From NCBI GenBank assembly GCA_002503285.1, contig DARI01000009.1:9049-73048 (forward strand): a DNA stretch of 64,000 bases. Reading direction: 5' to 3'. Under the pieces are notes generated by a model. That model was not told where the DNA came from. It was given only the letters and a program-made list of their open reading frames with translations, and ran no database searches. Source of the DNA: Euryarchaeota archaeon UBA557. Its GTDB lineage: Archaea; Thermoplasmatota; Poseidoniia; Poseidoniales; Thalassarchaeaceae. Shown here one piece after another: positions 6,933 through 56,088 of this stretch. A program made the position numbers and the translations under genes. The stretch's first letter is position 1. Every line of letters begins with the position of its first letter.

Positions 6933-7346
6933 TTAATCACCCTTTAATAAAAATCTTTTTACAGATTCCTCTCTTACCAAATGCAAATTATCTATAGACA
7001 TTGAAAGAATAATTTTTAATTCATCCACAATTATTTGGGGATTATTTTTTCCACATGTAAAGACATCTATTGCGAGGATACCAATTTCCGAATAACAATG
7101 TGCAGTAACGTGACTTTCATCCACTAACACAACAGCTGCAAATCCCGGGGGGCTATCTGTTCCATCAAATTCTACAACGTGGGCGTGAACTTCCTTTACT
7201 CCGGCTTTTTTAATACAATTTCTAAGGATTTTTAACATCCATTTACCATCTTCGTGAACAGGTGGATTATAATTAATATAATCTAAAAAAATATGAACTC
7301 CTCTACTTTCATTCGTGTCCATATTGGTTGACCCATAATCTATCAT
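6933..7346 (-). CDS. speH: pyruvoyl-dependent S-adenosylmethionine decarboxylase proenzyme family
   Basis: 'VLVDESHVTAHCYSE' matches the '..ESH.S.HTWPE' self-cleavage block (Glu-Ser site). 137 aa. Its stop abuts the dys start with 0 nt between. Confidence 0.75.
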   Translation of the reverse strand: MIDYGSTNMDTNESRGVHIFLDYINYNPPVHEDGKWMLKILRNCIKKAGVKEVHAHVVEFDGTDSPPGFAAVVLVDESHVTAHCYSEIGILAIDVFTCGKNNPQIIVDELKIILSMSIDNLHLVREESVKRFLLKGD

Positions 7347-7391
7347 AAATATAATTTTAGATAGTATAATTATAAAAATAACTAATTAACT

Positions 7392-26100: not shown

Positions 26101-28195
26101 CGATTTAGGTGGAGAAGTTTCTGTTATTCTTGAAGGAATAGATTTCGAAGATAGGGTTCATAGACAGATTGTAGAAAAATTATGTCCAAATGCCGGTTCA
26201 ATAAATCACAAAATTGTATTAAATCCACAATTATTACGTGATGATCCATTTTCTTTCCTTCCAGATGGATTTGGTCCAGTGAATGTAATTCTTAGATTTG
26301 AAGAAAATTTACCACATGAAGGATGTGAGCCGATAGTTGCAGAGATGTTAACCATATCAGGAGCATGGGACCCGTGTGTTTTAGTAACTAACAACGATCA
26401 TTTTAGAAAAGTAATGCAATTTCAAGTAGACGGCTTTAGTTTAATTGGTAGAACTGCATTAGATGTCGATGATCAAATTGTTTATACTTCTGAAATAGAT
26501 CCAAACACTGGAATTGCAGTTGAAAAACCAATGATAGTAACTGGGCAATTGACAGATGAATTAGGCGGACTACTCGACAATAGGGCAATTAGAGTTACTT
26601 ATGAGATGGATAATTCAGATAAGGGAATTGTTTCATGTATTCCTGGAATCACCGATTCTACAGGTAATTTTTCTATTATTTGTCCAATCTCAGGCGTTCA
26701 AGCCGGACAAGCAAAGGTAAGGGTTGAGTTTAATTCGTATGAAAATAATGATAGATATAGGTATGAAAATCAATCAGTAACTAGATTCTTCCCTGTATTT
26801 TCAAATTCATCTCTGAGTATCTCAGAAATAGGTCCTTTTAGGTCTGATTTTACGCAATATGAATTTTCTAATGGATCAAAATTTGACGTCTTGTACCTAA
26901 AAGAAGCATTCCATCTTGATGCTACATTAATTCAAACGAATGGAAATCCTATAGGTGGGAAATGTTTGAACATATATTTAGATCCACAAACAAATACTAG
27001 ACCTATGGCAACAATAGTCACAGAAGATGGTACTGGAGAAGTTTCTTGGTACTCAGGAGACCCAGATGACAATCCTAGCAGAAGAGGTGTTGAACCTAAT
27101 GGAAATCAATTGGAAGGATTCCGTACAATTAGGGTTGCATATGAACCAGATAAAGAAATTCCGGGAGGATGTAGGGCAGAATCTAATCCTGTTGTAAATA
27201 GCTCTTATGTGGATGTAGAAGTTTTAGTTCGTAGTAGAGTAGATATTTTACTCAAAGAACATTGGTCTAATCCCCAAGGATATCAAGAAGGAGATGTGAT
27301 ATCGGGAGCAGTTGCAATTCTTAGAGATCGCTTAGACATTACAGTTGAAGGTGAGCAAGTTGTATTTACAATACAATACTGGAATGGTTCCGGTTGGGAA
27401 ACCCATGATGTTGAGTATCTAATAACCAATGAACAAGGTGTTGCTAATTTCAGCTTTATATACACTGCTGAAGAAATACCAGGAGAGTTAGAAAAGACCG
27501 CAGAAGATGGAAAATGGAGAGTTTTAGTACAATTCCAAGAATCAGCCTTCTTTGAAGGAGAATATCTCAATAACACTCCCGTAATTGCCCTTGGAGGTGA
27601 TACGAATGTTGGTAAACAAAGTTTCTTCACCTCTCAAATATTAATCATCAGTGCAATTTCTATATCTATAGCTGCACTAGTTGGAGCAGTAATGTATCAG
27701 AATTATCGTGAAAGGCGTAAAATAGAAGTTATAAGAGGCATATTGACGGATTCCTTAATGGCTCTAAAAGCATCAAATAACTATATTGAAGCAATCTTTG
27801 ACTGTTATAAGAATCTAATAAAATTCTTTAGGTCTAAAGGTGCTATGAAGAAAGTATTTGAAACAACTCGTGAATTTGAGGACGTTATTAGTAATATGCT
27901 AACAGGAGTAATACCTCCAGAAGAAATGAATGTATTTTTCTCAATATTTGAAGAAGCAAGGTATTCTGATCATGAAATAGGGTCAGATCAAAGAGATCGC
28001 GCCATACAAGTTTTACAACAAATGATTACTCGTATTACAAATGCATTGGGAGAAAATATGTTAAATCGTAGCTCTGTTAATGAATCAGGATTATATGGTG
28101 CTGCAATAAAAGCTGGAGAGTTTATTGACTCGGATGGAAACGTCAGAGTTGCTGGTGCGGAAGATGAATCTGATAACAATGATTTTAGAATATAA
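20156..28195 (+). CDS. giant (2679 aa) acidic cell-surface protein with Asp-rich Ca-binding-type repeats, beta-sandwich-like region, C-terminal TM and cytoplasmic tail
   Basis: Single uninterrupted ORF. N-terminal hydrophobic segment. Many 'D.D.DG..D..D' units. C-terminal TM 'ILIISAISISIAALVGAVMY' followed by a basic stretch. Confidence 0.9.
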   Translation: MVVVRTRTSNKITNAGKKQTISALVLVSIMIFSTQMYTFQNFDSETNLSDSEKLPNKTIIQQSQLPSDEPNGQENQPFEFNPFDHAIFNDPTYHDPASYYGKISDLSALSAYPGYEFYLEETNTDDHDNDGIDDLNDLDDDNDGLNDLIERFDGCYGTDPFDHDNDGIQDELDWDDDNDGILEGPIDYTQGNDPRNVSSDRYLSSSVIHPWTGSAVGIGYLVDQNPFDHDNDGVPDEDIDGSGKGTYDEDDDNDARLDQFTWPCDFDGDGIQDYFDIDDDGDGVIDLWDEHPWDNTKTANITNTAELWVEAEIWASSLQYDISMTALGLSDSEITIEVGDTIRWTNDHTDDHSVRADDGSFDSGTLIAGGTFSHTFADEGSFTYTDTISQLESYSGTVTVRGDEGRPLPDVFNINAEVYGSETFDFVKKESSIWHPRDQSFSSIIDGDLDNDGLPNFIDPDNDNDGFPDSSDTDDDNDGLLDMYDVDDDNDGILDTCVQLDTNKDGNPDYPNLQPIGIPGIDCELDYDRDADDDIYRAIDSDYDLVWDWKDTDLGAAFPADNLLGNPGVDVTDLPYDLDNDGTPNEYDSFMNATDEEVLSWNCPSLENPNPQSSDDNCIFMRKSYTGNNDWDGDGFNNWIDVDDDNDGVLDWLDIDENCDLDDDNDLHLLNGSRYRDDGPNSIDTDIDGDGISNDEDWDDDNDGISDFYDPDDGNCGIVDNDASDNFYGNSYTHSDGDIIDGSADSQIYTGTGTLLWDMFWHFSPFIDGTQGFVLPYNGYETGTEEDSLTIVQQGVIPEIYWNIMMKWSPWNGNNYFDIDMDGDSLINGIDVDMDGDGMPDWWDQDEGNDGVLDVNDPAFGGSLDDSECGISLAFAVGQASGPIACGLSYAWMYGYPLLAATQSNGNTYTLPYSSRPDALYDDGEYDGSNSQGNNQCSDNCWWFTFDPGSNPTPTAAVTYDDIRNNRDLYIAYVGLNKGLFQWTADSNANLFPDEVADLLNDDVDPDNDCAAPIIGNLNPQCMSNDTTDLDDDFDGVYDHWDIDDDNDGLWDYFEVDTDDDWDDDDETNDGIYYFIGSNCVDADDDGLDTDPDADGWYQAVWDQGVLGQSLLFPEYYDVDNDNDGVPDGEDPDDDNNGILDVDQEVIAPQCFTGEEQSVWDHDNDGIQDWADDDWDADGINNTVELNSPNGLVSAFDHDNDGLRDDVDEDDDQDGMKDVDEVLLWPTRFGVESTNPWDHDDFGNGSGIANPLDPFTGPDSIDQDDDADNRSDIDFDQIEEDFGSSDWDSNNNGILDADDKIPSRITLNAPSILWLDAFNPAIFSGQVNLLADNGTFVPTENIPVQVHIVWTRNGTTALETVDVLTGSDGKYLVGQFLFPEDISVGPNSTYHVYAEVTEMFIHDSAVTESIPVEVRANTTSGYSAGTQFRSDEMPLKISLKTHYSADYDRGIFDNRISNAPFSFTVSDSKNLFGNVTHPTEFDGYGYGYRAGKDGWANLRFNQSNGNTGTWEQVQYNSALDNGEGTLAGGWEEILWNNFTKNHDVIKSPYVEIPTNVPTGDYFFVGTVNPSLGYDWPWPYLESSDTDSFTIRSMKRMFIESQLITPSDRPVYFYDSTQFTGSSFGAWRALFHAPSLASSGLDFTDISVGKSYPILWDGQAASLGTIAGGVLLDNNNQPFTSVNYLENNPHVPDGYYWSTRLQNGASFDVPPCGAVDPSDPESQVRCEIVPEMFTGEDWYVEGTVWNRTFAPWANDPLALQVDHDRNQVFAGSGETRRVARPNMVDGEAKFEFNDTWYSQFPAGTFGIKTSFTNSDYYFTGNQTQILAPVGSFGNISVIGTTDFQLTATPRLYRGQNATIEARLIDNAFQPVREVPVNYTWSADGSSDVVITDNNGVFKVNLTIDEGHQLGNFTLSYTYLGDSIREGNSAEINLWVVSRTFINLQSTTPNLLSSGDIWEFTAQVTDDNRTAFDKDLGQALSGCGDLGGEVSVILEGIDFEDRVHRQIVEKLCPNAGSINHKIVLNPQLLRDDPFSFLPDGFGPVNVILRFEENLPHEGCEPIVAEMLTISGAWDPCVLVTNNDHFRKVMQFQVDGFSLIGRTALDVDDQIVYTSEIDPNTGIAVEKPMIVTGQLTDELGGLLDNRAIRVTYEMDNSDKGIVSCIPGITDSTGNFSIICPISGVQAGQAKVRVEFNSYENNDRYRYENQSVTRFFPVFSNSSLSISEIGPFRSDFTQYEFSNGSKFDVLYLKEAFHLDATLIQTNGNPIGGKCLNIYLDPQTNTRPMATIVTEDGTGEVSWYSGDPDDNPSRRGVEPNGNQLEGFRTIRVAYEPDKEIPGGCRAESNPVVNSSYVDVEVLVRSRVDILLKEHWSNPQGYQEGDVISGAVAILRDRLDITVEGEQVVFTIQYWNGSGWETHDVEYLITNEQGVANFSFIYTAEEIPGELEKTAEDGKWRVLVQFQESAFFEGEYLNNTPVIALGGDTNVGKQSFFTSQILIISAISISIAALVGAVMYQNYRERRKIEVIRGILTDSLMALKASNNYIEAIFDCYKNLIKFFRSKGAMKKVFETTREFEDVISNMLTGVIPPEEMNVFFSIFEEARYSDHEIGSDQRDRAIQVLQQMITRITNALGENMLNRSSVNESGLYGAAIKAGEFIDSDGNVRVAGAEDESDNNDFRI
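20527..24055 (+). repeat. intragenic array of thrombospondin-type-3-like Asp-rich repeats (GAT/GAC-rich DNA)
   Basis: Recurrent 'DHDNDG', 'DDDNDG' (at least seven copies by my reading) and 'DxDGDG' units. The recurring 'gatgatgataatgatgg'-type DNA generates spurious His/Ile/Ser-rich ORFs in other frames. Confidence 0.85.
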
Positions 28196-47439: not shown

Positions 47440-47589
47440 ATCATATTCTCGGATTTAGATATCATTTGTAAAAAAGTTAGTTTTTATATGCTATTGCTAA
47501 CTTAATTTACTATAGTATATAAAATATTTAGATGATAGAGTCTATATATGTTACACATTCTCGGCCGGCCACGGAGTGTGTTTAACACA

Positions 47590-50500
47590 ATGAATAATAA
47601 TAAAATAATTGCAATGATGATGACATTGAGTATGCTTGCAGCAGCGTTTGCAGGATGTCTCGGTGGAGATGATGAAGAAGATGTTGAAGATTGGACATTA
47701 ATGGTCGCTAGCGACGTTAATGCTGAATTTGTAACATCTGATTGGGACCCAATAATTCCCAATTTGAACGCCGCGACTGGAATGTGTGATGCAATTCTTT
47801 CGTCTATGACAATAACTGACGCAAGAGAAGAAGTTGTCGATTTCACACGTGCTTACTACACAAGTGCCCAGGGAGTCATTGGAGCTAGCGGATCTGCTGC
47901 TATCACTGATGTTTCCGAGTTGAATATGGCTGGTACTACTGTAGCAGTACAATCAGGAACAACTTCTGACCTTTATGCAGCTGATAATCTAGCAGCAGCT
48001 ACAATTCAAGCATATGCAGACTGGCCATCAGTTATGGCTGCTGTTGCAGATGGAACAGCGCACTATGCTATTGGTGATGCACCTGTTGTAGCTCTTCAAG
48101 GAACATTGTTAACTACTTTCTCACCTGAGAATTTTGGTATAGCAGTTCGTGACGAGGCTGATAATGAATTGGAAGATGCTCTTAACGTTGCCATTACTGC
48201 TATAGTTGCAAATGGTGAAGAGGCTGCTATCTTTGCTGCTTGGTTCCCAGGCGATCCAAATACATTAGTGGATACTTCAACTGCTTCAACAGCAACTGCT
48301 TATCCAACTCCTACTGAAGGAAGCACACTAACTATGATTTTAGAATCTGGATCATTAAAATTCTGCTCAGATACGACATACCCTCCTTTTGAGAGTATAG
48401 ACTCTAATGGGAATGCTGTTGGTTTCAGTGTAGACATGGGTCATGCAATCGTTGACGAAATAGCTGAACACTATGCTAATGTAGCAGATACAACTGTTCT
48501 AGGATGTACTGACATGGATGCTTCAAACTATGATGCAACTGCTAACCTAGACGACGGAAGTTGTATTGAAGATACTATAGTCAAAATTGGTTTCTTGAAT
48601 CCTATCACAGGAGGAATATCACAATTCGCTCCTGCATTTACATATGCAGCAGCAGCAGCAGCTAGTGACTTGAATACAAATAATGACGGATATACTTTTG
48701 AAATTGTTACAGCAGATTCAGGATGCGATGGTACAGTAGCAGCAGCAGCAGCTCAAACATTAATTGATGCTGGCGTAGTTGCAGTAGCCGGAGCAGCATG
48801 TTCTGGTGCTTCAATGGCAGCAAATGCAGTACTTTCTGCAGCCGGAGTTCCAATGATCTCCTATGCAAGTACAAGCCCATCATTAACTGACTCAACTGCA
48901 TACCCTCATTTCTATCGTGTAGTTCCTAGTGATGCAATCCAAGGCCAAGCAATGAACGCTATGGTTGCTTCAACAGGAGTTACAAATCCTGCTTTAATCC
49001 ATATGACTAACTCCTATGGTGCAGGTCTAGCCGATTCATTTGAATCAAATTGGGGTACAGAAAATCTATGTACAAAGATAGGATATGATGAAACTGCAAC
49101 TTCTGATTTCTCAGGAGCAGTTCTAGCAGTTGTTGACGCTGGATGCGATTCAGTAGTTCTAGCATCTTATTCTACAGATGGTGCAATGATTATCGAAACT
49201 ATGGCAGTTATGGGGGCAACTCTTCCTATATTTGGTGCTGATGGTATCGCTGGTGAAGCAGCATTAAACGATTATACAGAATCTGCAGTAGCTAACGGTG
49301 TTATGGCAACTAAGCCAAAAGCAGCAGTTGGCGCAGGTACTTTCTCTGCAGATTGTGCAGCAGATACAGTATGTTCAGCTGGTATATACCAATCTGAAGT
49401 ATATGATTCAGTTATGATGATTGGAGCAGCTGCTTTGATGGAAGATGGTGCAAATATGGGTATGCATATTCCTATGGTTGCAACTGCTTCAAGTCCATAT
49501 GCCGGTGCAAGTGGATCTCATCAATTCTTAGAAAATGGTGATGTTGCTGGTGCAGGTTACGATGTGTGTATGTTCGCTCACGTACCAACATACGGCGATT
49601 ACTTCAATTGTCAAATGGTATGGACTGCAACTGGTGGCCTCGAAGCAGCATCATTCATGGGACAAACCGTTAAGATTGGTTTCTTGAATGATGCAACTGG
49701 AGCTATCGCAGTGTATGCAGATGGTTTCGTAGCAGCATCTCAAATTGCTCTTCAAATTGCAAATACTATCGGATGGAACAGTATGGTTCAATTCGAACTA
49801 GTTTACGCTGATTCCGGTTGTGATGGAACAGCAGGCGGTACTGCAGCTCAATCATTAATTGATGCAGGTGTAGTTGGTGTAGTTGGAGCAGCATGCTCCG
49901 GTGCAACAATGGGTGCTAATGCAGTATTATCTGCAGTAGGAATCCCAATGATCTCCTATGCAAGCACGAGCCCAGCATTAACTGATGCGACTGCTTACCC
50001 TGATTTCTTCCGTGTTGTGCCAAGCGATGCCCTACAAGGCCAAGCTCTCAATGCAGTAGTTGCAGCTGACATGCCAGCAGATGAAACAGTAGCTCTAGTC
50101 CACATGACTAACAGCTATGGTTCCGGATTAGCTGATTCTTTTGCTGCTGCTTATACAGCATCTGGTAACACACTATGTACACAAATCGGATATGAAGAGA
50201 CTGCTACTGATTTCCAGTCAGCTGTAGCAGCTGTTATGGAAAACGGATGTACTTCAGTTGTATTAGTATCATATGCTGCCGATGGTGCAATGATAGTTGA
50301 TGAGATGGCTCTCCAAGGATTCACTGGTCAAATTTATGGTGGAGATGGAGTTGCTGAAGAAGGACTAGCAGCAGATGCAACATCCACTGTTAATGGAATT
50401 ATCGCAACTAAACCATCATCAGGAACTATGGGTACAGTTGGATATGTATTCGCAAGTCTATGTGGTGCAAATGAAGCATGTGCTGGTGGTATCTATACTG

Positions 50501-50763
50501 CTGAAGCATTTGATTCAGTTGTAGTAATGGCTTTATCGGCATTCGCACAGATGGCATCACCAGGTGCATCTCTAAGCCAAGTTATTATGGCTACAGGACA
50601 AGGCGTCGAAGGTGCTAGTGGAGATATTACTTTCCTAGCAAACGGAGATGTACCAGGAGCAGGATATTGTGTAGGTGTTTTCACTGAATCTGCAGATGCA
50701 GTTTCATTTGATTGCACACGTACATGGGACCCAGCAAATGGTCTAGTAGATGTTACAGCTTAA
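47590..50763 (+). CDS. chimeric multi-domain ABC substrate-binding lipoprotein (SBP3-like module, Cys-flanked short module, two LivJ/Peripla_BP_6-like modules)
   Basis: Lipobox-like 'AAFAGCLGG'. SBP3 blocks 'DWDPIIPNL..DAILSSMTITDAREEVVDFTRAYY'. Two copies of 'VKIGFLN...DSGCDGT...GAACSGA.M.ANAVLSA.G.PMISYASTSP.LTD..AYP.F.RVVPSDA.QGQA'. Confidence 0.85.
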   Translation: MNNNKIIAMMMTLSMLAAAFAGCLGGDDEEDVEDWTLMVASDVNAEFVTSDWDPIIPNLNAATGMCDAILSSMTITDAREEVVDFTRAYYTSAQGVIGASGSAAITDVSELNMAGTTVAVQSGTTSDLYAADNLAAATIQAYADWPSVMAAVADGTAHYAIGDAPVVALQGTLLTTFSPENFGIAVRDEADNELEDALNVAITAIVANGEEAAIFAAWFPGDPNTLVDTSTASTATAYPTPTEGSTLTMILESGSLKFCSDTTYPPFESIDSNGNAVGFSVDMGHAIVDEIAEHYANVADTTVLGCTDMDASNYDATANLDDGSCIEDTIVKIGFLNPITGGISQFAPAFTYAAAAAASDLNTNNDGYTFEIVTADSGCDGTVAAAAAQTLIDAGVVAVAGAACSGASMAANAVLSAAGVPMISYASTSPSLTDSTAYPHFYRVVPSDAIQGQAMNAMVASTGVTNPALIHMTNSYGAGLADSFESNWGTENLCTKIGYDETATSDFSGAVLAVVDAGCDSVVLASYSTDGAMIIETMAVMGATLPIFGADGIAGEAALNDYTESAVANGVMATKPKAAVGAGTFSADCAADTVCSAGIYQSEVYDSVMMIGAAALMEDGANMGMHIPMVATASSPYAGASGSHQFLENGDVAGAGYDVCMFAHVPTYGDYFNCQMVWTATGGLEAASFMGQTVKIGFLNDATGAIAVYADGFVAASQIALQIANTIGWNSMVQFELVYADSGCDGTAGGTAAQSLIDAGVVGVVGAACSGATMGANAVLSAVGIPMISYASTSPALTDATAYPDFFRVVPSDALQGQALNAVVAADMPADETVALVHMTNSYGSGLADSFAAAYTASGNTLCTQIGYEETATDFQSAVAAVMENGCTSVVLVSYAADGAMIVDEMALQGFTGQIYGGDGVAEEGLAADATSTVNGIIATKPSSGTMGTVGYVFASLCGANEACAGGIYTAEAFDSVVVMALSAFAQMASPGASLSQVIMATGQGVEGASGDITFLANGDVPGAGYCVGVFTESADAVSFDCTRTWDPANGLVDVTA
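48577..50760 (+). repeat. intragenic tandem duplication of a LivJ-like binding module (copy 1 about 48577-49668, copy 2 about 49669-50760)
   Basis: Long collinear protein similarity between the two halves. An identical 20-mer 'ccaatgatctcctatgcaag' occurs at 48850-48869 and 49945-49964. Confidence 0.8.
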
Positions 50764-50800: not shown

Positions 50801-50829
50801 GCAGTATGGCGGTTTTTCCGCCATACTGC
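50801..50829 (+). terminator. perfect 12-bp stem / 5-nt loop hairpin between the receptor and permease genes (attenuator or mRNA-stabiliser candidate)
   Basis: GCAGTATGGCGG-ttttt-CCGCCATACTGC. A weaker AT hairpin TTAAGAAA-tat-TTTCTTAA lies at 50764-50782. Confidence 0.6.
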
Positions 50830-50868
50830 CCTAATCTTTTTCAAAGTAATATATTGGTGTCACAAATA

Positions 50869-53800
50869 ATGGATGCACCCCTTGACTCTATTCTTTCAAA
50901 GTTTGAGTCTTCTAAAAATAATCTCATTTCACCTCGTGGATCAAAAAGGCTATTAATTGCTTTAATAATATTTTTTGATGCAATTGTTCTTGGACTAATA
51001 TTTCAGTGGGGATTTCTTAATATAATTGACAAATTACTTGCAAATAAATTACCAAATGATTTTGTGTGGTTAATGCAATTATTAGAATCACTGTCAGCAG
51101 GTTTTCTAGTAATAAAAATATTTTTTGATGATTTGGAGCCAAATATTTTAAGAAATATATTAATATTCACTTCACCTTTATTTATGTTGTTTGTGATTGG
51201 AATCACACTCGATTCTTTACTAAAAGGGCTCGACACCAGGGCAACAGTCACTTTAGACTTAATTTCTATTAGTACAGGAACTCTGACATGGGCTTCTACT
51301 TACCTAGCAATCGCAACTGGGTTAACTTTAACTTACAAAGTCCAAAGATATGGAAATTTTGCACAATCTGAATTCTTTATGATTGGCATGTATCTAGCAA
51401 TGATTATGGTTTGGAGCGACTTTTATTATCCATTATATGATGCCCCAAAAGACGGAGTATTAGTCTATTCATTACTCTTATGGACAATGATAGGGGCATT
51501 CGTATTAACAGGAATTGCGGGCATAATTATTGATCGTGTAGTTTATCGAGGTTTTCGAAAAGAAAAAGCTTCACCACAAGTGATGATGATTGCCTCATTA
51601 GGTGTAGCATTAATTTTAAGGGCCCTAACATATCTTCGCTTTGGTGCATCTAGAAATATGTTTGAACCCGATGCAGATTGGAGAGTATCTACTTTAAGGT
51701 GGAAATTACCTACCACTAAATTTCGTTTCAATCTTGGAGAACGTAACTTAACTGATGGTAAAACATATACTCATTTTACCTGTGAAGAGACTGGTTTAGA
51801 TCCTACTACCGGAGAACCAATATTAACACGAATAATAAGTGAAATATCAAGGCCTTTATTAGAAATATACAATAAAAATACTGATTGTATAACAGGTGCA
51901 ACAACAAATTATGCGTATTTCAAAGGAATAGTACCTCTGGTAATATTTGCTAGTGTTATATTACTATTTTTATTCTTGAATAAATCAAGATTGGGTAGGC
52001 GCATGAGGGCTGTAGCTGATAACCCTGAATTAGCAGCTAGTAGTGGAATAAATGTAGAAAGAATTCAATTAACAAGCGCATTCCTATCGGCTGGAATCTC
52101 TGGATTAGGTGGGGCGATATTCGCAATTACTCTAAGATTCAATCCAGAAACAGCATTTACTCTCCTACTTCCTTCTTTTGCAGTAATTGTTCTAGGTACA
52201 ATAGGTTCACTATCAGGTGCAATTATAGCTTCTTTAATTGTAGGATTTGTACGTGCACTTTCATCACCAATTTTGATTGGTATTGGACTGCCATTGGGGC
52301 GCTCAAATTACACTGCATTAGATGGAGTAATGCCATTTATTTTCTTGGTTGCAGTACTAATGATACTTCCAGAAGGTATTGGAGATGCTTATGAGAAGTG
52401 GAAAATAGATAGATTGAGGGCAAGAAGAGAAAAAAATACAAAACCTTCCAAAATAATCTATACATTATTGGCCCTATTTCCATTAACAGGTATTTTTGGT
52501 ATCCATCATTGGTACAACAATAGGTCTGATAAAACTCAAATTGTATCATCTATAACCTTAGGTGCGTTCATTTATCATAAAATTGCAGGTTTTATTGGTA
52601 AACAATCGTTCGCAAATGGTTCATGCTCTGATGCATGTTTAAACGACCCAAATACAGAAACAAATTTAGATCTTATCACCGGTACCGATGGCATACTTCA
52701 GGCCTCAGATTCTCCCTACTTTGTTGACAATGTATCTGATATTGATTTATCCTGGTTTGAACTAATGCAAACAGAGTTATTGTTTGTAGATACTATTATG
52801 AATATAGATTCCTTAATTTGGCCATTAATTCCAATAATTATGTCGATTATAGCCATATATCAGGGTATTAATTTATATTTAGATGGTAAATTATCAAATT
52901 TTATATCATTAAAAAATCATTCCTTTTCAAATATTCTCAAATCAATATTTGGTAACAATTCAGAAGATAATAAATCATCTATTGCTCAATCTCTTAAGCA
53001 AATAAAATTCACGTTTACTAATGTTAAATTACGTTGGGGGGAATTAAATCGTCAGCATGAAACAATTCTTAAGAATCTTACAGTAAAAATAAAATCTTTC
53101 ATATCTTCTGAAAAAATACCTCCAATCAAAGATTATATTCCTAAATCCATAACACCGATGTATGGCAGAGAAAGTCCAAAAGGGTCTTGGATGGCATTCG
53201 CAATCTTAATGATTATATTATTGTCATTTTTATATTGGTTACCTATTGCAGATAATCCTAATTTCTCATGGAATTATCTTAAAATCGGCCAAGTATCTAA
53301 CTCAATAATTGTTGCTTCAATATTTATTTTAATGGCCTTTTCACTTAACCTTCATACTGGAATAACTGGAATGACTAATTTTGGAGTTATTTTCTTTGTT
53401 GCTGTTGGCGCAATAAGTGTGGGAATTCTAACAGCACCAACTGACGTACATGGCTACGGATGGGGCATATTACCTGCTACAATTATGGGGATGTTACTTG
53501 CTGCTGCTTGCGGCTGGGCATTAGCATACCCCACTGCTCGATTGAGAATGGATTACTTCGCTATTGTAACCATTTCTCTAGGGGAAATACTACGTGTATT
53601 ATTAGCTGGAGAACCATTACTAAGAGTTGGAACTGTTGGATCTGCAATAGGCATAAATCATTATCCTTTGCCACTTAAACAATTATGGTTTTGTGGCCGG
53701 GGAGTTGATATTGGGCCAACTTCTAATTATATTAGTGCAGATGCCTGTAGAAACGACACTACTCTTTTGGGGCCAGCTGATAAAATAGGGGAAATACTAA

Positions 53801-54576
53801 ATCTTGGAGAACCCGCTCCATATTCATTTTTATTAGCAATAATGAGTATTATTTCTGTTATATTGGTATGGCGTTTGCTTGAAACTATCTTATCATCACC
53901 TTGGGGTAGAATTTTGAAATCAATAAGAGAAGATGAGGATGTTGCACAACATCATGGTCATGATGTACTCACTCACAAGGCCGCAAGCCTTGCATTGGGG
54001 GCTGCGATTGCAGGATTGGCAGGTGCGCTCTGGGCATGGAAACTAACCGGTTTTGAACCATCATTCATGTCTCCTGCTAGATCGACATTCTTGGTCTGGG
54101 CAGCATTCATAATTGGAGGTGCTGCAAATAATAAGGGAATGATAATTGGTGCACTAATGTATGCTTTAATGGAATCCGTATTCAATGTTTTAGTTGCGGG
54201 CCAAGGCTCGCCAGATTTACCTCTACACGCTACCGCAGATAGAATAGATAGATTATTCGAATGGCTAGTAGTAAATCAATGGGATGCAGCTCAAATATTC
54301 TTGATAATAACTCTGATAGGCTTCATAATCCGTAGTAGGAATATTACTGAAATAGGTCTTTCTGGTGCATTTATTTTTATTATGACATTTGTATTATTTG
54401 GGCAGAGATCCATTGATGAGTCATTCAGCACAGGCATTATTCAAGCAAATATGGCATATGTGAAGTTATTGTTAATTGGATTAGTAATGTTACTATCGTT
54501 GAAATTAAATCCAAAAGGATTACTTCCTGAAGTTCCATTTAGGCCGGATAGAGAATCTAGGGAGGACATTCAATGA
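50869..54576 (+). CDS. fused LivH-LivM type branched-chain amino acid ABC permease with a long internal linker
   Basis: N-half 'LTYKVQRYGNFAQSEFFMIGMY' and 'MRAVADNPELAASSGINV' (LivH-like). C-half 'FSLNLHTGITGMTNFGVIFFVAVGA' and 'ILKSIREDEDVAQHHGHDV' (LivM-like). The ATG at 50806 lies inside the hairpin, so 50869 is preferred. Confidence 0.8.
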   Translation: MDAPLDSILSKFESSKNNLISPRGSKRLLIALIIFFDAIVLGLIFQWGFLNIIDKLLANKLPNDFVWLMQLLESLSAGFLVIKIFFDDLEPNILRNILIFTSPLFMLFVIGITLDSLLKGLDTRATVTLDLISISTGTLTWASTYLAIATGLTLTYKVQRYGNFAQSEFFMIGMYLAMIMVWSDFYYPLYDAPKDGVLVYSLLLWTMIGAFVLTGIAGIIIDRVVYRGFRKEKASPQVMMIASLGVALILRALTYLRFGASRNMFEPDADWRVSTLRWKLPTTKFRFNLGERNLTDGKTYTHFTCEETGLDPTTGEPILTRIISEISRPLLEIYNKNTDCITGATTNYAYFKGIVPLVIFASVILLFLFLNKSRLGRRMRAVADNPELAASSGINVERIQLTSAFLSAGISGLGGAIFAITLRFNPETAFTLLLPSFAVIVLGTIGSLSGAIIASLIVGFVRALSSPILIGIGLPLGRSNYTALDGVMPFIFLVAVLMILPEGIGDAYEKWKIDRLRARREKNTKPSKIIYTLLALFPLTGIFGIHHWYNNRSDKTQIVSSITLGAFIYHKIAGFIGKQSFANGSCSDACLNDPNTETNLDLITGTDGILQASDSPYFVDNVSDIDLSWFELMQTELLFVDTIMNIDSLIWPLIPIIMSIIAIYQGINLYLDGKLSNFISLKNHSFSNILKSIFGNNSEDNKSSIAQSLKQIKFTFTNVKLRWGELNRQHETILKNLTVKIKSFISSEKIPPIKDYIPKSITPMYGRESPKGSWMAFAILMIILLSFLYWLPIADNPNFSWNYLKIGQVSNSIIVASIFILMAFSLNLHTGITGMTNFGVIFFVAVGAISVGILTAPTDVHGYGWGILPATIMGMLLAAACGWALAYPTARLRMDYFAIVTISLGEILRVLLAGEPLLRVGTVGSAIGINHYPLPLKQLWFCGRGVDIGPTSNYISADACRNDTTLLGPADKIGEILNLGEPAPYSFLLAIMSIISVILVWRLLETILSSPWGRILKSIREDEDVAQHHGHDVLTHKAASLALGAAIAGLAGALWAWKLTGFEPSFMSPARSTFLVWAAFIIGGAANNKGMIIGALMYALMESVFNVLVAGQGSPDLPLHATADRIDRLFEWLVVNQWDAAQIFLIITLIGFIIRSRNITEIGLSGAFIFIMTFVLFGQRSIDESFSTGIIQANMAYVKLLLIGLVMLLSLKLNPKGLLPEVPFRPDRESREDIQ

Positions 54577-55367
54577 ATTCAGAATCTCAAGATAATACTA
54601 TTTTGAAAGTAACAAATCTTCGTAAAGAATTCGGAGGACTGATTGCTGTTAAAGATGTATCCTTTGAAATTAAAAAAGGTGAATTTATAGGTTTAATAGG
54701 TCCCAATGGATGTGGTAAATCTACAACCTTTAATTGTATTAGTGGTCTTCTGAACCAGACCTCTGGAAAAGTAGAAATTTATGGCACCGATGTCTCAAAA
54801 ATGAGACCAGATCAAATACATGGATTAGGCATGACTAGGACTTTCCAACATACTAGGTTGTGGCGTAAGATGACCGTACTTGAAAATCTATTAGTCCCAC
54901 CTCGTAAACAATTCTCTCCAAATATATTAAAATCCTTATTGATGCCAAATAAAAGCAAAGAAGAGCAAGAAAGATTAAATCAAGCATATGAGATATTAGA
55001 TGAGCTTGAGGTCCCTCATATGGCGCATAATTTAGCAAGCGAACTTTCAGGTGGCCAATCAAAATTAGTAGATATTGGACGTTCAAGAATGGGCTCACCA
55101 AACTTATTATTGCTTGATGAGCCAGTAGCAGGAGTAGCAGGGCCATTAGCCATGAAGATATTCAATAACCTTAGAAAGACAGTTAACGAAACTGGTATTT
55201 CGGTATTAATAATCGAACATAATATGGATTTTATTTTACGTCAAGGCGTTGATAGGATAATAGTAATGAATGAAGGAGAGGTATTGATGATCGGAACTCC
55301 TGATGAAGTCAAATCAAATAAAGCAGTTATTGCAGCATATCTCGGCGCTGCAGGAGAGGAAGAATAA
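54573..55367 (+). CDS. livG: LIV-type ABC transporter ATP-binding protein (LivG-like)
   Basis: 'FGGLIAVKDVSF', Walker A 'GPNGCGKST', signature 'LSGGQSK', Walker B 'LLLLDEP'. 4-nt overlap with the permease gene. Confidence 0.9.
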   Translation: MNSESQDNTILKVTNLRKEFGGLIAVKDVSFEIKKGEFIGLIGPNGCGKSTTFNCISGLLNQTSGKVEIYGTDVSKMRPDQIHGLGMTRTFQHTRLWRKMTVLENLLVPPRKQFSPNILKSLLMPNKSKEEQERLNQAYEILDELEVPHMAHNLASELSGGQSKLVDIGRSRMGSPNLLLLDEPVAGVAGPLAMKIFNNLRKTVNETGISVLIIEHNMDFILRQGVDRIIVMNEGEVLMIGTPDEVKSNKAVIAAYLGAAGEEE

Positions 55368-55368
55368 T

Positions 55369-56088
55369 ATGACTAGATTGTTAGATGTGAAAGGACTCAA
55401 TGGAGGATATGGTAGTGTACAAATTCTTTACGACATAAACGTACATGTCGATGAAGGAGAATTTGTAACTATTATAGGGCCTAATGGATGTGGAAAATCA
55501 ACATTTATCAAAATCATATTTGGAATTGCTACACATTATTCAGGAAATGTAGAACATAATGGGGATGATGTATCTGGATGGAGGACAGACCAATTAGTAA
55601 ATAGGGGAATTGCATATGTCCCACAAGTGGATAATGTATTTCCTTCTTTAACGATATATGAGAATTTACAGATGGGTGGAAATAATTTATCTACCAAAAT
55701 CCTGAATGAAAGAATAGAACGTGCATTAAATATGTTTCCAGATTTAAGAGAAAGAGTCCACGATTTAGCGGCATCCCTCTCTGGAGGAGAGCGTCAAATG
55801 TTAGCAATATCTAGGGCGCTTATTTCTAACCCAAAATTCCTTTTACTCGATGAGCCAACTGCTGCCCTGAGTCCATTATATCAACAACAAATAATAGAAA
55901 GGATTGATTCTCTTAGACATGAGGGGATTACAGTGTTAATTGTCGAGCAAAATGCACGACTTTCACTTGCTCGTTCAGATAGAGGTTATATCTTTGCTGG
56001 CGGTAAAGTAGTTCACACAGGAGACGCTCAAAGTATCCTAAATGACCCAGAAATTGGTGAATATTTCCTTGGAAATAAATCTGAGTAA
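55369..56088 (+). CDS. livF: LIV-type ABC transporter ATP-binding protein (LivF-like)
   Basis: 'GPNGCGKST', 'LSGGERQMLAISRAL' and 'LLLDEPTAALSP'. The ATG at 55369 follows 'GGAGAGGAAGAATAAT'. Confidence 0.9.
   Translation: MTRLLDVKGLNGGYGSVQILYDINVHVDEGEFVTIIGPNGCGKSTFIKIIFGIATHYSGNVEHNGDDVSGWRTDQLVNRGIAYVPQVDNVFPSLTIYENLQMGGNNLSTKILNERIERALNMFPDLRERVHDLAASLSGGERQMLAISRALISNPKFLLLDEPTAALSPLYQQQIIERIDSLRHEGITVLIVEQNARLSLARSDRGYIFAGGKVVHTGDAQSILNDPEIGEYFLGNKSE

What the first reader, a model, noticed from the sequence alone, without database searches (positions are those of the whole stretch)
47590..50763. Chimeric ~1057-aa lipoprotein receptor fusing two different substrate-binding-protein families
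One ORF with a lipobox-like signal ('AAFAGC') contains, in order: an SBP family 3 (polar amino acid)-like module (aa ~49-233 of the track ORF), a Thr/Ser/Pro linker, a ~50-aa SBP3 N-terminal-like segment, a short Cys-flanked module, and two LivJ/Peripla_BP_6-like modules of ~360 aa each. Binding proteins of ABC importers are normally single-module. A receptor with three or more potential ligand sites from two structural classes, feeding a single LIV-type translocator, is very unusual. It may broaden substrate range (amino acids or peptides) while saving genes in a streamlined genome. The gene is Ala-rich and visibly GC-richer than its surroundings.
Basis: partly seen in the sequence, partly recalled or inferred. 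Interest (0 to 1): 0.65.

Follow-up and report, generated by a model that had tools for sequence, protein, structure and literature searches.

The report
Three-module amino-acid receptor of marine archaea
This is a real, conserved surface lipoprotein of Marine Group II archaea, reportedly highly transcribed, that strings three amino-acid-binding domains (one circularly permuted polar-amino-acid type, two leucine-binding-protein type) in front of one ABC importer; it is an unusual variant of known multi-domain binding proteins, not a new kind of system.

Summary
The ORF is real (47590..50763, 1057 aa, conserved lipobox).

It is not an assembly fusion. More than 230 full-length homologues (51-97% identity) were retrieved, and 278 relatives lie in GTDB species genomes. 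These include single-cell genomes and long-read 1.5-1.6 Mb contigs. All sit in the same locus: TRM1-AIRS-[SBP-fused LivHM-LivG-LivF]-PCC-MCM of Poseidoniales/Thalassarchaeaceae.

New points:
- The "SBP3 module" and the "50-aa N-terminal-like segment" are one circularly permuted SBP3 domain, so there are three ligand sites.
- Predicted pocket residues of all three modules are invariant or nearly so, and the permuted module is the most conserved.
- Related marine-archaeal SBP3 proteins use at least two other permutation frames. Standalone ones sit beside polar-amino-acid-type (PAAT) permeases, not LIV-type ones.
- A natural Thalassarchaeaceae variant lacks the permuted module cleanly.
- The GC excess comes from amino-acid composition (18% Ala, 1.4% Lys+Arg). 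GC3 equals that of the neighbours, so it is not horizontal transfer.

Best reading: three independent binding heads on one lipid anchor. The LivJ heads serve the adjacent LIV translocator. The partner of the permuted head is unresolved. New variant of a known kind.

The parts
47590..47658 (+). Signal peptide with lipobox (MNNNKIIAMMMTLSMLAAAFAG|C23)
   Evidence: The N-terminus is conserved in all homologues. A21, G22 and C23 are invariant in 46 sequences. AF2 predicts a helix with low pLDDT over aa 1-33. Lipid modification itself was not testable.
47659..47703 (+). Short acidic tether (LGGDDEEDVEDW...)
   Evidence: Length varies between homologues and pLDDT is low.
47704..48264 (+). Circularly permuted SBP3 domain, segment A (canonical beta3 to the C-terminal helices; aa 39-225)
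   Evidence: Pfam SBP_bac_3. Aligns to AncCDT-1 residues 62-245. Foldseek aligns about 180 columns at rmsd 1.8-2.6 A to liganded SBP3 structures. Predicted pocket residues W52, S71, T74, R79, Q121, T124-S126 and D163 are invariant.
48265..48318 (+). Closure linker joining the ancestral C-terminus to the ancestral N-terminus (aa 226-243, T/S/P-rich)
   Evidence: Conserved: mean pairwise identity 0.70. The domain-only model has no residue below pLDDT 50, and the 10-residue blocks covering the linker average 89-97. The same VVLTDDTDAxTATxYP motif occurs in standalone permuted relatives.
48319..48480 (+). Circularly permuted SBP3 domain, segment B (canonical beta1-beta2-alpha1; aa 244-297)
   Evidence: Aligns to AncCDT-1 residues 13-60. 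The in-silico un-permuted B+A sequence gives one full-length match to TIGR01096 (profile 17-250 of 250) and to GlnBP residues 6-225. D261, Y264 and F267 are invariant. A+B model: pTM 0.89.
48505..48564 (+). Cys-flanked mini-module CTDMDASNYDATANLDDGSC (aa 306-325) within the linker to LivJ1
   Evidence: It is an indel. It is present in this clade (P0002, P0003, P0119), lies at a shifted place in the same linker in P0004, and lies right after the lipobox in P0091, P0415 and P0395. It is repeated about 18 times in the unrelated protein P0259. No Pfam match; pLDDT below 50.
48574..49647 (+). LivJ-type module 1 (aa 329-686)
   Evidence: One of the two Peripla_BP_6 / ANF_receptor stretches. Aligns to LivK 1usg residues 3-330. 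pLDDT is mostly above 90. S405, A426-S427-T428, Y476, Y527 and D551-G552 are invariant.
49663..50751 (+). LivJ-type module 2 (aa 692-1054)
   Evidence: NCBIfam LivJ profile 20-364 matches aa 687-1037. 52% identical to module 1. Matches 4n0q and 1z15 by sequence. The full-length model matches liganded LivJ-like structures at TMt 0.84-0.90, though Foldseek does not say which module aligned. C769-S770, A791-S792-T793, Y843, Y895 and D919-G920 are invariant.
50806..54576 (+). Fused LivH-LivM permease (1256 aa, two BPD_transp_2 domains)
   Evidence: Pfam and NCBIfam. It follows the SBP gene in every locus that extends far enough. A crude hydropathy scan gives about 20 hydrophobic segments and several 65-100-aa loops.
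54573..55367 (+). LivG-type ATPase
   Evidence: NCBIfam LivG 223.8 bits, plus BCA_ABC_TP_C.
55303..56088 (+). LivF-type ATPase (true start probably about 25 codons downstream of the listed ATG)
   Evidence: NCBIfam LivF 204.5 bits. The match begins at aa 26.

Best explanation
The gene encodes the membrane-anchored receptor of the Marine Group II (Thalassarchaeaceae) LIV-type amino-acid ABC importer. It has been built up into a 'three heads on one lipid anchor' protein.

After the lipobox Cys and a short acidic tether come three modules:
1. A circularly permuted SBP3 (cluster F) Venus-flytrap domain. The ancestral termini are closed by a conserved ~18-25-aa linker. The new termini lie in the former alpha1-beta3 loop, so the chain should enter and leave the domain at nearly the same point, like a plug-in cassette.
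2. A LivJ-type (cluster B) domain.
3. A second LivJ-type domain.

Each module keeps residues that, in characterised relatives, hold the alpha-amino and alpha-carboxyl groups of a free amino acid. Each most likely binds its own amino acid independently, as the tandem SBDs of GlnPQ do.

The two LivJ heads dock on, and deliver to, the co-transcribed fused LivHM permease with the LivG and LivF ATPases.

The permuted SBP3 head binds a polar amino acid. It descends from a marine-archaeal SBP lineage that normally serves PAAT-type (GlnP/HisM-like) permeases. I favour delivery in trans to such a translocator encoded elsewhere (about 40%) over delivery to LivHM (about 30%) or no delivery role (about 30%).

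Shown: architecture, permutation, conservation, synteny, modular gain and loss. Inferred: ligand classes, independence of the heads, docking partners.
For: Architecture and folds:
- Pfam and NCBIfam domain calls.
- AF2 full-length model: mean pLDDT 84, LivJ modules mostly above 90.
- The model matches liganded LivJ/LivK/Atu2422-like structures at TMt 0.84-0.90.

Circular permutation:
- Against AncCDT-1, query residues (numbered from Leu24) 221-268 match chain 13-60 and 20-196 match chain 62-245.
- The un-permuted B+A sequence gives one full-length hit to TIGR01096 (148 bits against 137.5 bits in two pieces) and to GlnBP 6-225.
- The A+B model has pLDDT 92.8 and pTM 0.89 with no residue below 50.
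- About 180 alignment columns superpose on closed SBP3 structures at about 2 A.

Conservation:
- Predicted pocket residues are invariant in 46 sequences, apart from S72 and C404 and the two positions aligned to LivK W18.
- Mean pairwise identity: cpSBP3 0.73, LivJ1 0.64, LivJ2 0.60.
- LivK alignment: C78-S79, T102, Y150 and Y202 are kept; E226 is D and W18 is F.

Reality of the gene and the operon:
- 120 full-length hits of 1019-1081 aa, on contigs up to 1.5 Mb, and a further 120 at 54-100% identity to P0122.
- 278 relatives in GTDB species genomes, including SAGs and long-read MAGs.
- SBP-LivHM-LivG-LivF, with conserved flanks, in essentially all 80 loci.

Modularity:
- The P0415 cluster (787 aa) has several independent full-length contigs and one member named Thalassarchaeaceae.
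- It lacks cpSBP3, has LivJ1-2 92% identical to three-module proteins, and sits in the same operon.
- The same cp frame, 89% identical, is embedded in a non-ABC surface protein, P0131.

Origin of the cpSBP3 head:
- Standalone permuted relatives lie next to a GlnP/HisM-type permease and an ATPase.

Literature:
- livK and aapJ are among the most transcribed Thalassarchaeaceae genes, and each lies with a full transporter (PMC9723583).
- MGIIb carry BCAA and L-amino-acid SBPs (PMC6336850).
- GlnPQ tandem SBDs bind independently, and linker length tunes transport (PMC8025302).
Against: - No binding or transport data exist for any module. Ligand classes rest on conserved backbone-binding residues only.
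- The cpSBP3 head is fused to, and co-transcribed with, the LIV system in hundreds of genomes. Ordinary fusion logic then argues that it serves LivHM, not a distant PAAT system.
- The PAAT system reported in MGIIb has its own aapJ.
- I could not show that a PAAT permease exists in this genome. None lies in the 64-kb window.
- The named standalone relatives are from Heimdall/Kariarchaeaceae or unclassified Euryarchaeota, not from named MGIIb.
- The inter-module arrangement in the full-length model is uncertain (pTM 0.62).
Confidence: 0.72

Rival explanations
1. One reading: all three heads, including the SBP3-type one, dock on the single fused LivHM translocator. One LIV-type importer then takes up both hydrophobic and polar amino acids. 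This would be cross-class docking of a cluster-F domain on a BPD_transp_2 permease.
For: - The fusion and operon are strictly conserved.
- The cpSBP3 head is the most conserved module.
- MGII LivHM is atypical: fused, 1256 aa, with several 65-100-aa loops between hydrophobic segments that could offer extra docking surface.
- No PAAT permease lies in the window.
Against: - To my knowledge no SBP3 domain is known to serve a BPD_transp_2 permease.
- The two standalone permuted relatives whose neighbours were scanned (L086, L093) lie next to BPD_transp_1 permeases.
- The natural variant without cpSBP3 keeps a fused two-BPD_transp_2 LivHM of 1240 aa, so no coupled change in the permease's architecture is seen.
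Confidence: 0.3
2. The permuted SBP3 head binds a ligand but does not deliver it. It would act as a sensor or regulator of the LivJ heads or the translocator, a local ligand buffer, or a membrane-proximal spacer.
For: - SBP3 domains do have non-transport roles in other proteins, for example MltF (an SBP3-containing family that scores weakly here).
- The same cp cassette occurs in a non-ABC surface protein with LDL-A repeats, P0131.
- A lineage lost the head cleanly without losing the transporter.
Against: - The predicted pocket is almost fully invariant, and close homologues lie in PAAT ABC operons, so a delivery function is the default.
- GlnPQ tandem domains show no cooperativity.
- Nothing in the sequence suggests a signalling output.
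Confidence: 0.2
3. The long ORF is an artefact: an assembly or annotation fusion of separate SBP genes, or a decaying pseudogene.
For: - One related 681-aa 'cpSBP3 + single LivJ' protein (P0121, also locus L141) is an exact LivJ1/LivJ2 hybrid of a three-module protein.
- It could therefore be an assembly collapse across the conserved repeat.
Against: - More than 230 independent full-length homologues have the same domain set.
- They include single-cell genomes (AG-xxx isolates) and long-read MAGs with 0.7-1.6 Mb contigs.
- There is no stop or frameshift in the window ORF.
- All modules are conserved.
Confidence: 0.01
4. The GC-rich gene is a recent horizontal acquisition (a foreign island) in a low-GC genome.
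For: - GC is 0.41-0.46 against 0.32-0.38 in the flanks.
- cpSBP3 relatives occur in Heimdall-group archaea. An ancient transfer of that module between marine archaea is therefore plausible.
Against: - GC3 is 0.213, the same as neighbouring genes at 0.22-0.26.
- The excess lies in GC1 and GC2 and comes from 18% Ala, 10% Gly and only 1.4% Lys+Arg.
- The locus is syntenic across the 80 loci examined.
Confidence: 0.03

Closest known systems
GlnPQ of Lactococcus lactis and other Gram-positives (tandem SBD1-SBD2 ABC importer, PAAT family)
   Same: - Several Venus-flytrap amino-acid-binding domains sit in one polypeptide, joined by short linkers.
- The domains differ in sequence.
- The tandem crystal structure 6h30 is the best PDB sequence hit of the N-module.
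- In GlnPQ the heads bind independently and compete for one translocator (PMC8025302). That is the working model adopted here.
   Different: - GlnPQ SBDs are all SBP3 type, have canonical topology, and are fused to the permease itself.
- Here the receptor is a separate lipoprotein and mixes cluster F and cluster B domains.
- The SBP3 domain is circularly permuted.
- The adjacent permease is LIV-type (BPD_transp_2).
E. coli LivJ/LivK-LivHMGF (HAAT family)
   Same: - Two paralogous LivJ-type receptors serve one LivHMGF translocator (E. coli facts from my own knowledge).
- The fold matches (TMt 0.84-0.90 to liganded LivJ-like structures).
- The residues aligned to the LivK backbone-binding positions are kept.
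- Same gene order: SBP, permease, LivG, LivF.
   Different: - The two receptors are fused head to tail (52% identical) and lipid-anchored.
- LivH and LivM are fused into one 1256-aa protein.
- An extra SBP3-type head is present.
TpMglB-2 (Tp0684) of Treponema pallidum, a naturally circularly permuted binding lipoprotein ('Type Ic / Cluster Bc')
   Same: - A natural circular permutation of a binding protein moves the first strands of the N-lobe to the C-terminus.
- The protein is a tethered lipoprotein.
- The authors link the permutation to tethering (PMC4990184).
   Different: - TpMglB-2 is a cluster B sugar binder.
- Here the permuted domain is a cluster F amino-acid binder.
- Its relatives show at least three different permutation frames, plus tandem arrays that look like the duplication intermediates.
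Eukaryotic ionotropic glutamate receptors and plant GLRs
   Same: - One polypeptide combines a LIVBP-like (ANF_receptor / Peripla_BP_6) domain with a LAOBP/GlnBP-like (SBP_bac_3 / Lig_chan-Glu_bd) domain (PMC9739336).
- The window protein also scores on ANF_receptor, and weakly on Lig_chan-Glu_bd.
   Different: - The domain order is reversed.
- There is no ion-channel domain.
- The context is an ABC importer.
- This is a resemblance in domain content only; no common origin of the fusion is implied.
Standalone circularly permuted SBP3 proteins of marine archaea (Kariarchaeaceae/Heimdallarchaeota and unclassified Euryarchaeota), found here
   Same: - 35-67% identical, by segment, to the window's N-module.
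- They share the conserved closure motif (A-tail helices, then VVLTDDTDAxTATxYP, then FGSDTTYPPFE).
   Different: - The chain opens at other positions: before the C-terminal helices (type 1), or at the lobe 1/lobe 2 crossover (type 2).
- They are anchored by a C-terminal TM segment with a basic tail instead of a lipobox.
- They lie next to a GlnP/HisM-type permease with an N-terminal BNR-type propeller and an ATPase.

Membership tests
SBP_bac_3 / cluster F polar amino-acid binding proteins | Profile match above the curated threshold | tested here: met
   PF00497 scores 85.4 bits against a cut-off of 26.4. TIGR01096 scores 133 bits, below its subfamily cut-off of 256.
SBP_bac_3 / cluster F polar amino-acid binding proteins | Bilobed class II fold | tested here: met
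   AF2 N-module: pLDDT 92.8, pTM 0.89. Foldseek aligns about 180 columns at rmsd 1.8-2.6 A to AncCDT-1, GlnBP and LAO.
SBP_bac_3 / cluster F polar amino-acid binding proteins | Canonical N-to-C order of secondary structure (beta1-beta2-alpha1 first) | tested here: not met
   Circularly permuted. Canonical residues 13-60 follow residues 62-245. The re-ordered sequence gives one full-length match.
SBP_bac_3 / cluster F polar amino-acid binding proteins | Conserved residues that bind the ligand's alpha-carboxylate and alpha-amino groups (GlnBP R75, T70, D157, D10 equivalents; GlnBP numbering recalled from memory) | tested here: met
   R79, T74, D163 and D261 are invariant in 46 sequences, as are W52, Y264 and F267.
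SBP_bac_3 / cluster F polar amino-acid binding proteins | Genomic association with a BPD_transp_1 (PAAT) permease | tested here: not met
   The adjacent permease is BPD_transp_2. Standalone permuted relatives do sit next to BPD_transp_1 permeases.
SBP_bac_3 / cluster F polar amino-acid binding proteins | Binds a polar amino acid | not testable with these tools
   Needs ITC or DSF on the recombinant module.
Peripla_BP_6 / LivJ-type (cluster B, HAAT) binding proteins | Profile match above threshold, for each of the two modules | tested here: met
   PF13458 176 bits and PF01094 195.5 bits, each in two stretches.
Peripla_BP_6 / LivJ-type (cluster B, HAAT) binding proteins | Class I Venus-flytrap fold | tested here: met
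   TMt 0.84-0.90 to 3td9, 3ip5, 3ipc, 4n0q and 4gnr. pLDDT is mostly above 90.
Peripla_BP_6 / LivJ-type (cluster B, HAAT) binding proteins | Amino-acid backbone-binding residues (LivJ/LivK S79, A100-T102, Y150, Y202, E226; roles recalled from memory) | tested here: met
   S405, A426-S427-T428, Y476, Y527 and D551 in module 1, and S770, A791-S792-T793, Y843, Y895 and D919 in module 2, are invariant. E226 is replaced by Asp.
Peripla_BP_6 / LivJ-type (cluster B, HAAT) binding proteins | Operon with LivH/LivM permease and LivG/LivF ATPases | tested here: met
   Conserved across the 80 GTDB loci wherever they extend far enough.
Tandem-SBD ABC importers (GlnPQ type) | Two or more substrate-binding domains in one polypeptide | tested here: met
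   Three domains.
Tandem-SBD ABC importers (GlnPQ type) | SBDs covalently fused to the transmembrane domain | tested here: not met
   The SBP gene ends at 50763. The permease is a separate ORF from 50806.
Tandem-SBD ABC importers (GlnPQ type) | All SBDs belong to the class cognate to the translocator | tested here: not met
   The cpSBP3 head is cluster F, whereas the translocator is HAAT/BPD_transp_2.
Prokaryotic lipoproteins | Signal peptide ending in a lipobox with an invariant Cys | tested here: met
   LAAAFAG|C, with A21-G22-C23 invariant.
Prokaryotic lipoproteins | Lipid modification of the Cys | not testable with these tools
   Requires mass spectrometry or labelling. The organism is uncultured.
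Circularly permuted binding proteins ('Cluster Bc', TpMglB-2) | N-lobe's first strands relocated to the C-terminus of the domain | tested here: met
   The precedent is described in PMC4990184.
Circularly permuted binding proteins ('Cluster Bc', TpMglB-2) | Homology to MglB-type cluster B sugar binders | tested here: not met
   The permuted domain is SBP_bac_3 / cluster F. It is analogous to TpMglB-2, not a member of that family.

The most novel reading that the evidence does not exclude
The permuted SBP3 head is a working delivery module. On this reading it does one of two things. Either it docks on the LIV-type (BPD_transp_2) LivHM permease, which would be the first cross-class pairing of an SBP with a translocator. 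Or it makes this one lipoprotein a receptor shared by two ABC translocators of different families (HAAT and PAAT). The permutation would have been selected because adjacent chain termini let the domain be plugged into other surface proteins. In addition, the marine-archaeal SBP3 clade, with three natural permutation frames plus tandem intermediates, would be an unusually complete natural record of 'permutation by duplication'.
Probability: 0.3. Interest if true: 0.8.

Novelty: new variant of a known kind. Interest (0 to 1): 0.58.

Why it matters
Marine Group II archaea are described as the most abundant planktonic archaea of the surface ocean (abstracts). The gene annotated as 'livK' is reported among their most transcribed genes (PMC9723583).

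If that 'livK' is in fact a three-site receptor spanning two binding-protein classes, two things follow:
- Transcript and protein counts assigned to 'branched-chain amino-acid uptake' probably cover a wider substrate range.
- KEGG-style annotation of MGII transport is too narrow.

For ABC-transporter biology, the protein offers a natural heterologous multi-head receptor. It could be used to test competition, linker-length and docking-specificity ideas developed on GlnPQ.

For protein evolution, the permuted SBP3 clade gives a clean natural case of circular permutation by duplication and truncation. It has several frames, tandem intermediates, canonical-order relatives, and gain and loss as a cassette.

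Tried and rejected
- **Assembly fusion.** Rejected on the number and quality of independent full-length homologues.
- **HGT as the cause of the GC excess.** Rejected, because GC3 equals that of the neighbours.
- **Two paralogues per genome.** MAG_45 gives L001 at 96% and L011 at 69%. Both copies have identical flanking synteny, so the bin is most likely a mix of two populations.
- **'cpSBP3 + one LivJ' as a natural variant (P0121, L141).** Its single LivJ is 100% LivJ1 and then 100% LivJ2 of P0041. The crossover lies in the conserved GAACSG..SYASTSP stretch. This is unequal recombination or an assembly collapse, and I cannot tell which.
- **'LivJ-LivJ only' proteins as the ancestral state.** P0415 nests within the three-module clade (92% identity), so it is a recent loss. 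P0123 is on a giant-virus-like contig.
- **IMG/VR scan for viral copies.** Found none.
- **Foldseek as a test of segment B.** Foldseek aligns in sequence order and model coordinates are not exposed. It therefore could not show segment B in its canonical place. I relied on pTM 0.89 and on the re-ordered-sequence test instead.
- **Segment 'TLMVASDVNAEF' as beta1.** This was my first reading. The PDB alignment shows it is beta3.
- **A C66-C259 disulfide stapling segments A and B.** Both Cys are invariant. My register estimate against GlnBP, done from memory, puts them about four residues out of register, and without coordinates I could not check it. Left as untested.
- **Search for a second SBP3 gene in the window.** None found by tblastn, and no PAAT permease among the genes I scanned.
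- **Literature searches for this architecture.** MGII transporter papers and the paired Pfam names SBP_bac_3 and Peripla_BP_6 turned up no description of it.

Full report
**1. The observation**

An uninterrupted ORF runs from 47548 to 50763 on the + strand. Homologues uniformly start at the second ATG with MNN[KN]KIIAMMMTLSMLAAAFAGC. The gene is therefore 47590..50763, 1057 aa. A21-G22-C23 of the lipobox are invariant in 46 diverse homologues.

Pfam finds SBP_bac_3 (85.4 bits, cut-off 26.4). It also finds Peripla_BP_6 (176 bits) and ANF_receptor (195.5 bits), each in two stretches. NCBIfam gives a LAO-binding-protein profile for aa 43-219 and LivJ for the C-terminal modules.

The downstream genes are:
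- a fused LivH-LivM permease of 1256 aa with two BPD_transp_2 domains;
- LivG;
- LivF.

Flanking genes are archaeal: MCM, TRM1 and PAC2.

**2. Not an artefact; the organism**

The word-indexed search returned 120 full-length proteins of 1019-1081 aa, 68-97% identical and with the same Pfam set. They lie on contigs up to 1.5 Mb. A second search, seeded with a 55%-identical representative, returned another 120 proteins at 54-100% identity to that seed.

In one-genome-per-species GTDB contigs, 278 relatives were confirmed. The best 80 are all Poseidoniales, Thalassarchaeaceae, 'Methanobacteriota' or 'Euryarchaeota' MAGs, apart from one titled only 'bacterium'. They include single-cell genomes (AG-xxx) and long-read MAGs (LRMED-022 at 1.6 Mb, LRMED-021). 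The window is 96% identical in this protein to Thalassarchaeaceae MAG_45.

The block TRM1-AIRS-[SBP-LivHM-LivG-LivF]-(esterase)-PCC-MCM is syntenic in essentially all loci that reach far enough. This is a vertically inherited core operon of MGIIb.

Published work is consistent with this:
- 'livK' is reported among the most highly transcribed Thalassarchaeaceae genes, present in MGIIb but not MGIIa (PMC9723583).
- MGIIb carry binding proteins for branched-chain and L-amino acids (PMC6336850).
- MG-II express amino-acid transporters in Atlantic metaproteomes (PMC5776962).

None of the papers found mentions the three-module build.

**3. The N-terminal part is one circularly permuted SBP3 domain**

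Against the crystal sequence of AncCDT-1 (5t0w), two pieces of the N-module align. Residues here are numbered from Leu24.
- Residues 221-268 align to chain 13-60.
- Residues 20-196 align to chain 62-245.

This is an exact permutation. The break falls in the alpha1-beta3 loop.

Re-ordering the sequence in silico (segment B, then segment A) turns the two-piece match into a single match:
- to nearly the whole TIGR01096 profile (17-250 of 250; 148 bits against 137.5 bits);
- to AncCDT-1 13-245;
- to GlnBP 6-225.

AlphaFold2 on aa 34-300 alone gives mean pLDDT 92.8 and pTM 0.89, with no residue below 50. The 10-residue blocks that cover the ~18-25-aa T/S/P linker closing the old termini average pLDDT 89-97. 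The two pieces are thus predicted to form one compact domain.

Foldseek aligns about 180 columns (segment A) on closed, liganded SBP3 structures at 1.8-2.6 A. When it is forced onto the sequential A1-B2 arrangement of the GlnPQ tandem, the fit is 16-18 A. That is expected if B packs back onto A.

Because the new termini come from cutting a short loop, they should lie next to each other in space. This is an inference from the canonical fold.

**4. The two LivJ modules**

They are 52% identical to each other. They are modelled with pLDDT mostly above 90. The full-length model matches liganded LivJ/LivK/Atu2422-like structures at TMt 0.84-0.90.

In the alignment to LivK, the residues at the positions I recall as binding the ligand's backbone are retained:
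- C78-S79;
- the A/G-A-T102 triplet, here A-S-T;
- Y150 and Y202;
- E226-G227, here D-G.

**5. Conservation**

Mean pairwise identity across the 46 sequences is 0.73 for cpSBP3 segment A, 0.70 for the closure linker and 0.70 for segment B. It is 0.64 for LivJ1 and 0.60 for LivJ2.

Almost all predicted pocket residues of all three modules are invariant. The exceptions are S72, C404, and the position aligned to LivK W18: F/Y in LivJ1 and Y/L/F in LivJ2.

All three sites are therefore under purifying selection. The permuted head is, if anything, the most constrained.

**6. Evolutionary context of the permuted head**

The exhaustive representative search (126 representatives at E<1e-30), with my module mapping, shows the full order A-B-LivJ-LivJ only in representatives 41-89% identical to the window protein, i.e. 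its own family. Other architectures also appeared:
- Tandem, triple (P0269) and five-fold (P0182, 1943 aa) LivJ proteins exist elsewhere.
- The SBP3 relatives form a clade that shares one conserved closure: A-tail helices, then VVLTDDTDAxTATxYP, then FGSDTTYPPFE.
- Members of that clade open the chain at three different places: the window's frame; 'type 1', starting at the C-terminal helices (P0170 and others); and 'type 2', starting in lobe 2 (P0186 and others).
- A tandem of type-2 units exists (P0160). Tandems in the canonical order also exist, and I judge them bacterial from their sequences only (P0244, P0249, P0254, P0267).
- Single-copy relatives in the canonical order, 50-53% identical, also turned up in the metagenome scan (L106, L108).

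This is what permutation by duplication and truncation predicts.

Standalone type-1 and type-2 proteins carry an N-terminal hydrophobic leader that looks like a signal peptide. They also carry a C-terminal TM segment with a basic tail. The two whose neighbours I scanned (L086, L093) lie divergently next to a GlnP/HisM-type permease (BPD_transp_1 with an N-terminal BNR-type propeller) and an ABC ATPase. Their source names are Candidatus Kariarchaeum, Kariarchaeaceae, Heimdallarchaeota, Asgard group and 'Euryarchaeota/Methanobacteriota archaeon'.

**7. Modularity in nature**

A variant cluster (P0415; several independent 787-aa contigs; one member named Thalassarchaeaceae) keeps the same signal peptide, a Cys mini-module and LivJ1-LivJ2. 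Its LivJ region is 92% identical to three-module proteins. It sits in the same operon but lacks the permuted head entirely. That is a recent, clean loss.

Conversely, the same cp frame at 89% identity is embedded in a non-ABC surface protein with LDL-receptor class A repeats (P0131). The head thus behaves as a cassette.

A 'cpSBP3 + single LivJ' form (P0121, L141) is an exact LivJ1/LivJ2 hybrid. It may be an assembly collapse.

**8. Composition**

The gene's GC (0.43) exceeds that of its neighbours (0.35-0.39) only at codon positions 1 and 2. GC3 is 0.213 against 0.22-0.26. The protein is 18% Ala and 10% Gly, with 0.8% Lys and 0.6% Arg. Each module has a net charge of about -30. This reflects the make-up of an acidic, Ala-rich extracellular protein, not foreign DNA.

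**9. How it most likely works**

Shown:
- three intact Venus-flytrap modules on one lipobox anchor;
- an adjacent LIV-type translocator;
- independent gain and loss of the SBP3 head.

Inferred:
- Each head binds one free amino acid and opens and closes independently, as shown for GlnPQ tandem SBDs (PMC8025302).
- The two LivJ heads compete for docking on LivHM. Their specificities differ at least at the position aligned to LivK W18.
- The permuted head binds a polar amino acid.

The partner of the permuted head is open. Its ancestry points to a PAAT-type translocator, and MGIIb are reported to have such a system (aapJ with a full transporter). Its fusion and co-transcription point instead to LivHM. 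Its dispensability, and its use in a non-ABC protein, leave room for a non-delivery role. I rate these at about 40%, 30% and 30%.

**10. Comparison with what is known, and verdict**

The system works like GlnPQ (several heads, one translocator) and like E. coli LivJ/LivK-LivHMGF. It differs from both in four ways:
- It mixes cluster F and cluster B domains.
- The receptor is a separate lipoprotein.
- It contains a naturally permuted SBP3.
- LivH and LivM are fused.

Natural circular permutation of a binding lipoprotein has a precedent in TpMglB-2, a cluster B protein (PMC4990184). Combining LIVBP-like and LAOBP-like domains in one chain is the hallmark of iGluR and GLR channels, but in another order and context.

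I file it as a new variant of a known kind.

Noticed in passing
L081/L083 (ENA ERZ28548057 contig_33015_pilon, 35.7 kb); gene at L083 10001-12379: A LivJ-LivJ-only protein (P0123, 792 aa) is 69% identical to the MGII three-module proteins and has an N-terminal TM anchor instead of a lipobox. Its contig has 21% GC over the 14-kb stretch read. The contig also carries fragments of NCLDV major capsid genes (Capsid_N, Capsid_NCLDV), ADP-ribosylglycohydrolase, fatty-acid hydroxylase and a glycosyltransferase. It looks like a giant-virus contig that acquired an archaeal binding-protein gene. An IMG/VR scan found no further copies.
   Followed up: partly
window 48505-48564; also P0091, P0415, P0259, P0193, P0161: A ~20-aa Cys-flanked mini-module (C-x-D-x2-A-x-N-Y-x4-A-x2-DDGSC) behaves as a mobile linker insert. 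It appears at different positions in different homologues. It is repeated about 18 times in an unrelated 1416-aa PKD/He_PIG surface protein. It has no Pfam family and low pLDDT.
   Followed up: partly
window 50806-54576: LivH and LivM are fused into one 1256-aa permease. A crude hydropathy scan gives about 20 hydrophobic segments, an N-terminal extension of about 150 aa and several 65-100-aa loops. The fusion is conserved downstream of the SBP gene across Poseidoniales.
   Followed up: partly
L086 4401-6167 (-) and L093 5982-7802 (-): The PAAT-type permeases next to standalone permuted SBP3 genes carry an N-terminal BNR/Ycf48-like beta-propeller domain fused to the GlnP/HisM-type membrane domain. 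The SBP gene clusters are named Kariarchaeum/Heimdallarchaeota/Asgard group (L086) and Euryarchaeota/Methanobacteriota archaeon (L093).
   Followed up: no
L090 about 6870-8040, compared with L093: In a contig with the same neighbouring ORF layout as L093, the PAAT permease and ATPase ORFs are absent. The permuted SBP3 ORF is only 201 aa. This suggests decay of that transporter in some lineages.
   Followed up: no
L001 and L011 (both from JAJPRD01, Thalassarchaeaceae MAG_45); likewise L005 and L010 (CAXGTB01): One MAG carries two copies of the whole syntenic locus (96% and 69% identity to the window protein). The bin most likely mixes two populations rather than holding paralogues.
   Followed up: yes
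window 47590-50763: The secreted receptor almost lacks Lys and Arg (0.8% and 0.6%). It is 18% Ala, and each module has a net charge of about -30. The invariant R79, aligned to the ligand-binding GlnBP R75, is among the few Arg left. Possible explanations are nitrogen saving or an acidic surface proteome.
   Followed up: partly
window 20156-28195 (+): A giant ORF of 2679 aa is very Asp-rich (13.9%). It has many DxDxDG-like 'DHDNDG(I/V)xD' repeats at its N-terminus, resembling calcium-binding repeats. It is probably a large surface protein.
   Followed up: no
P0131 (878 aa) and L108 7074-10127 (1017 aa): SBP3 domains are embedded in large surface proteins with LDL-receptor class A repeats. The P0131 domain is in the window's permuted frame and 89% identical to it; the L108 domain is in canonical order. 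P0131 ends in a hydrophobic segment with a basic tail.
   Followed up: partly
window 55303-55377: The listed LivF ORF overlaps LivG by 65 nt, and the LivF profile match starts at aa 26. The real start is probably a downstream codon.
   Followed up: no
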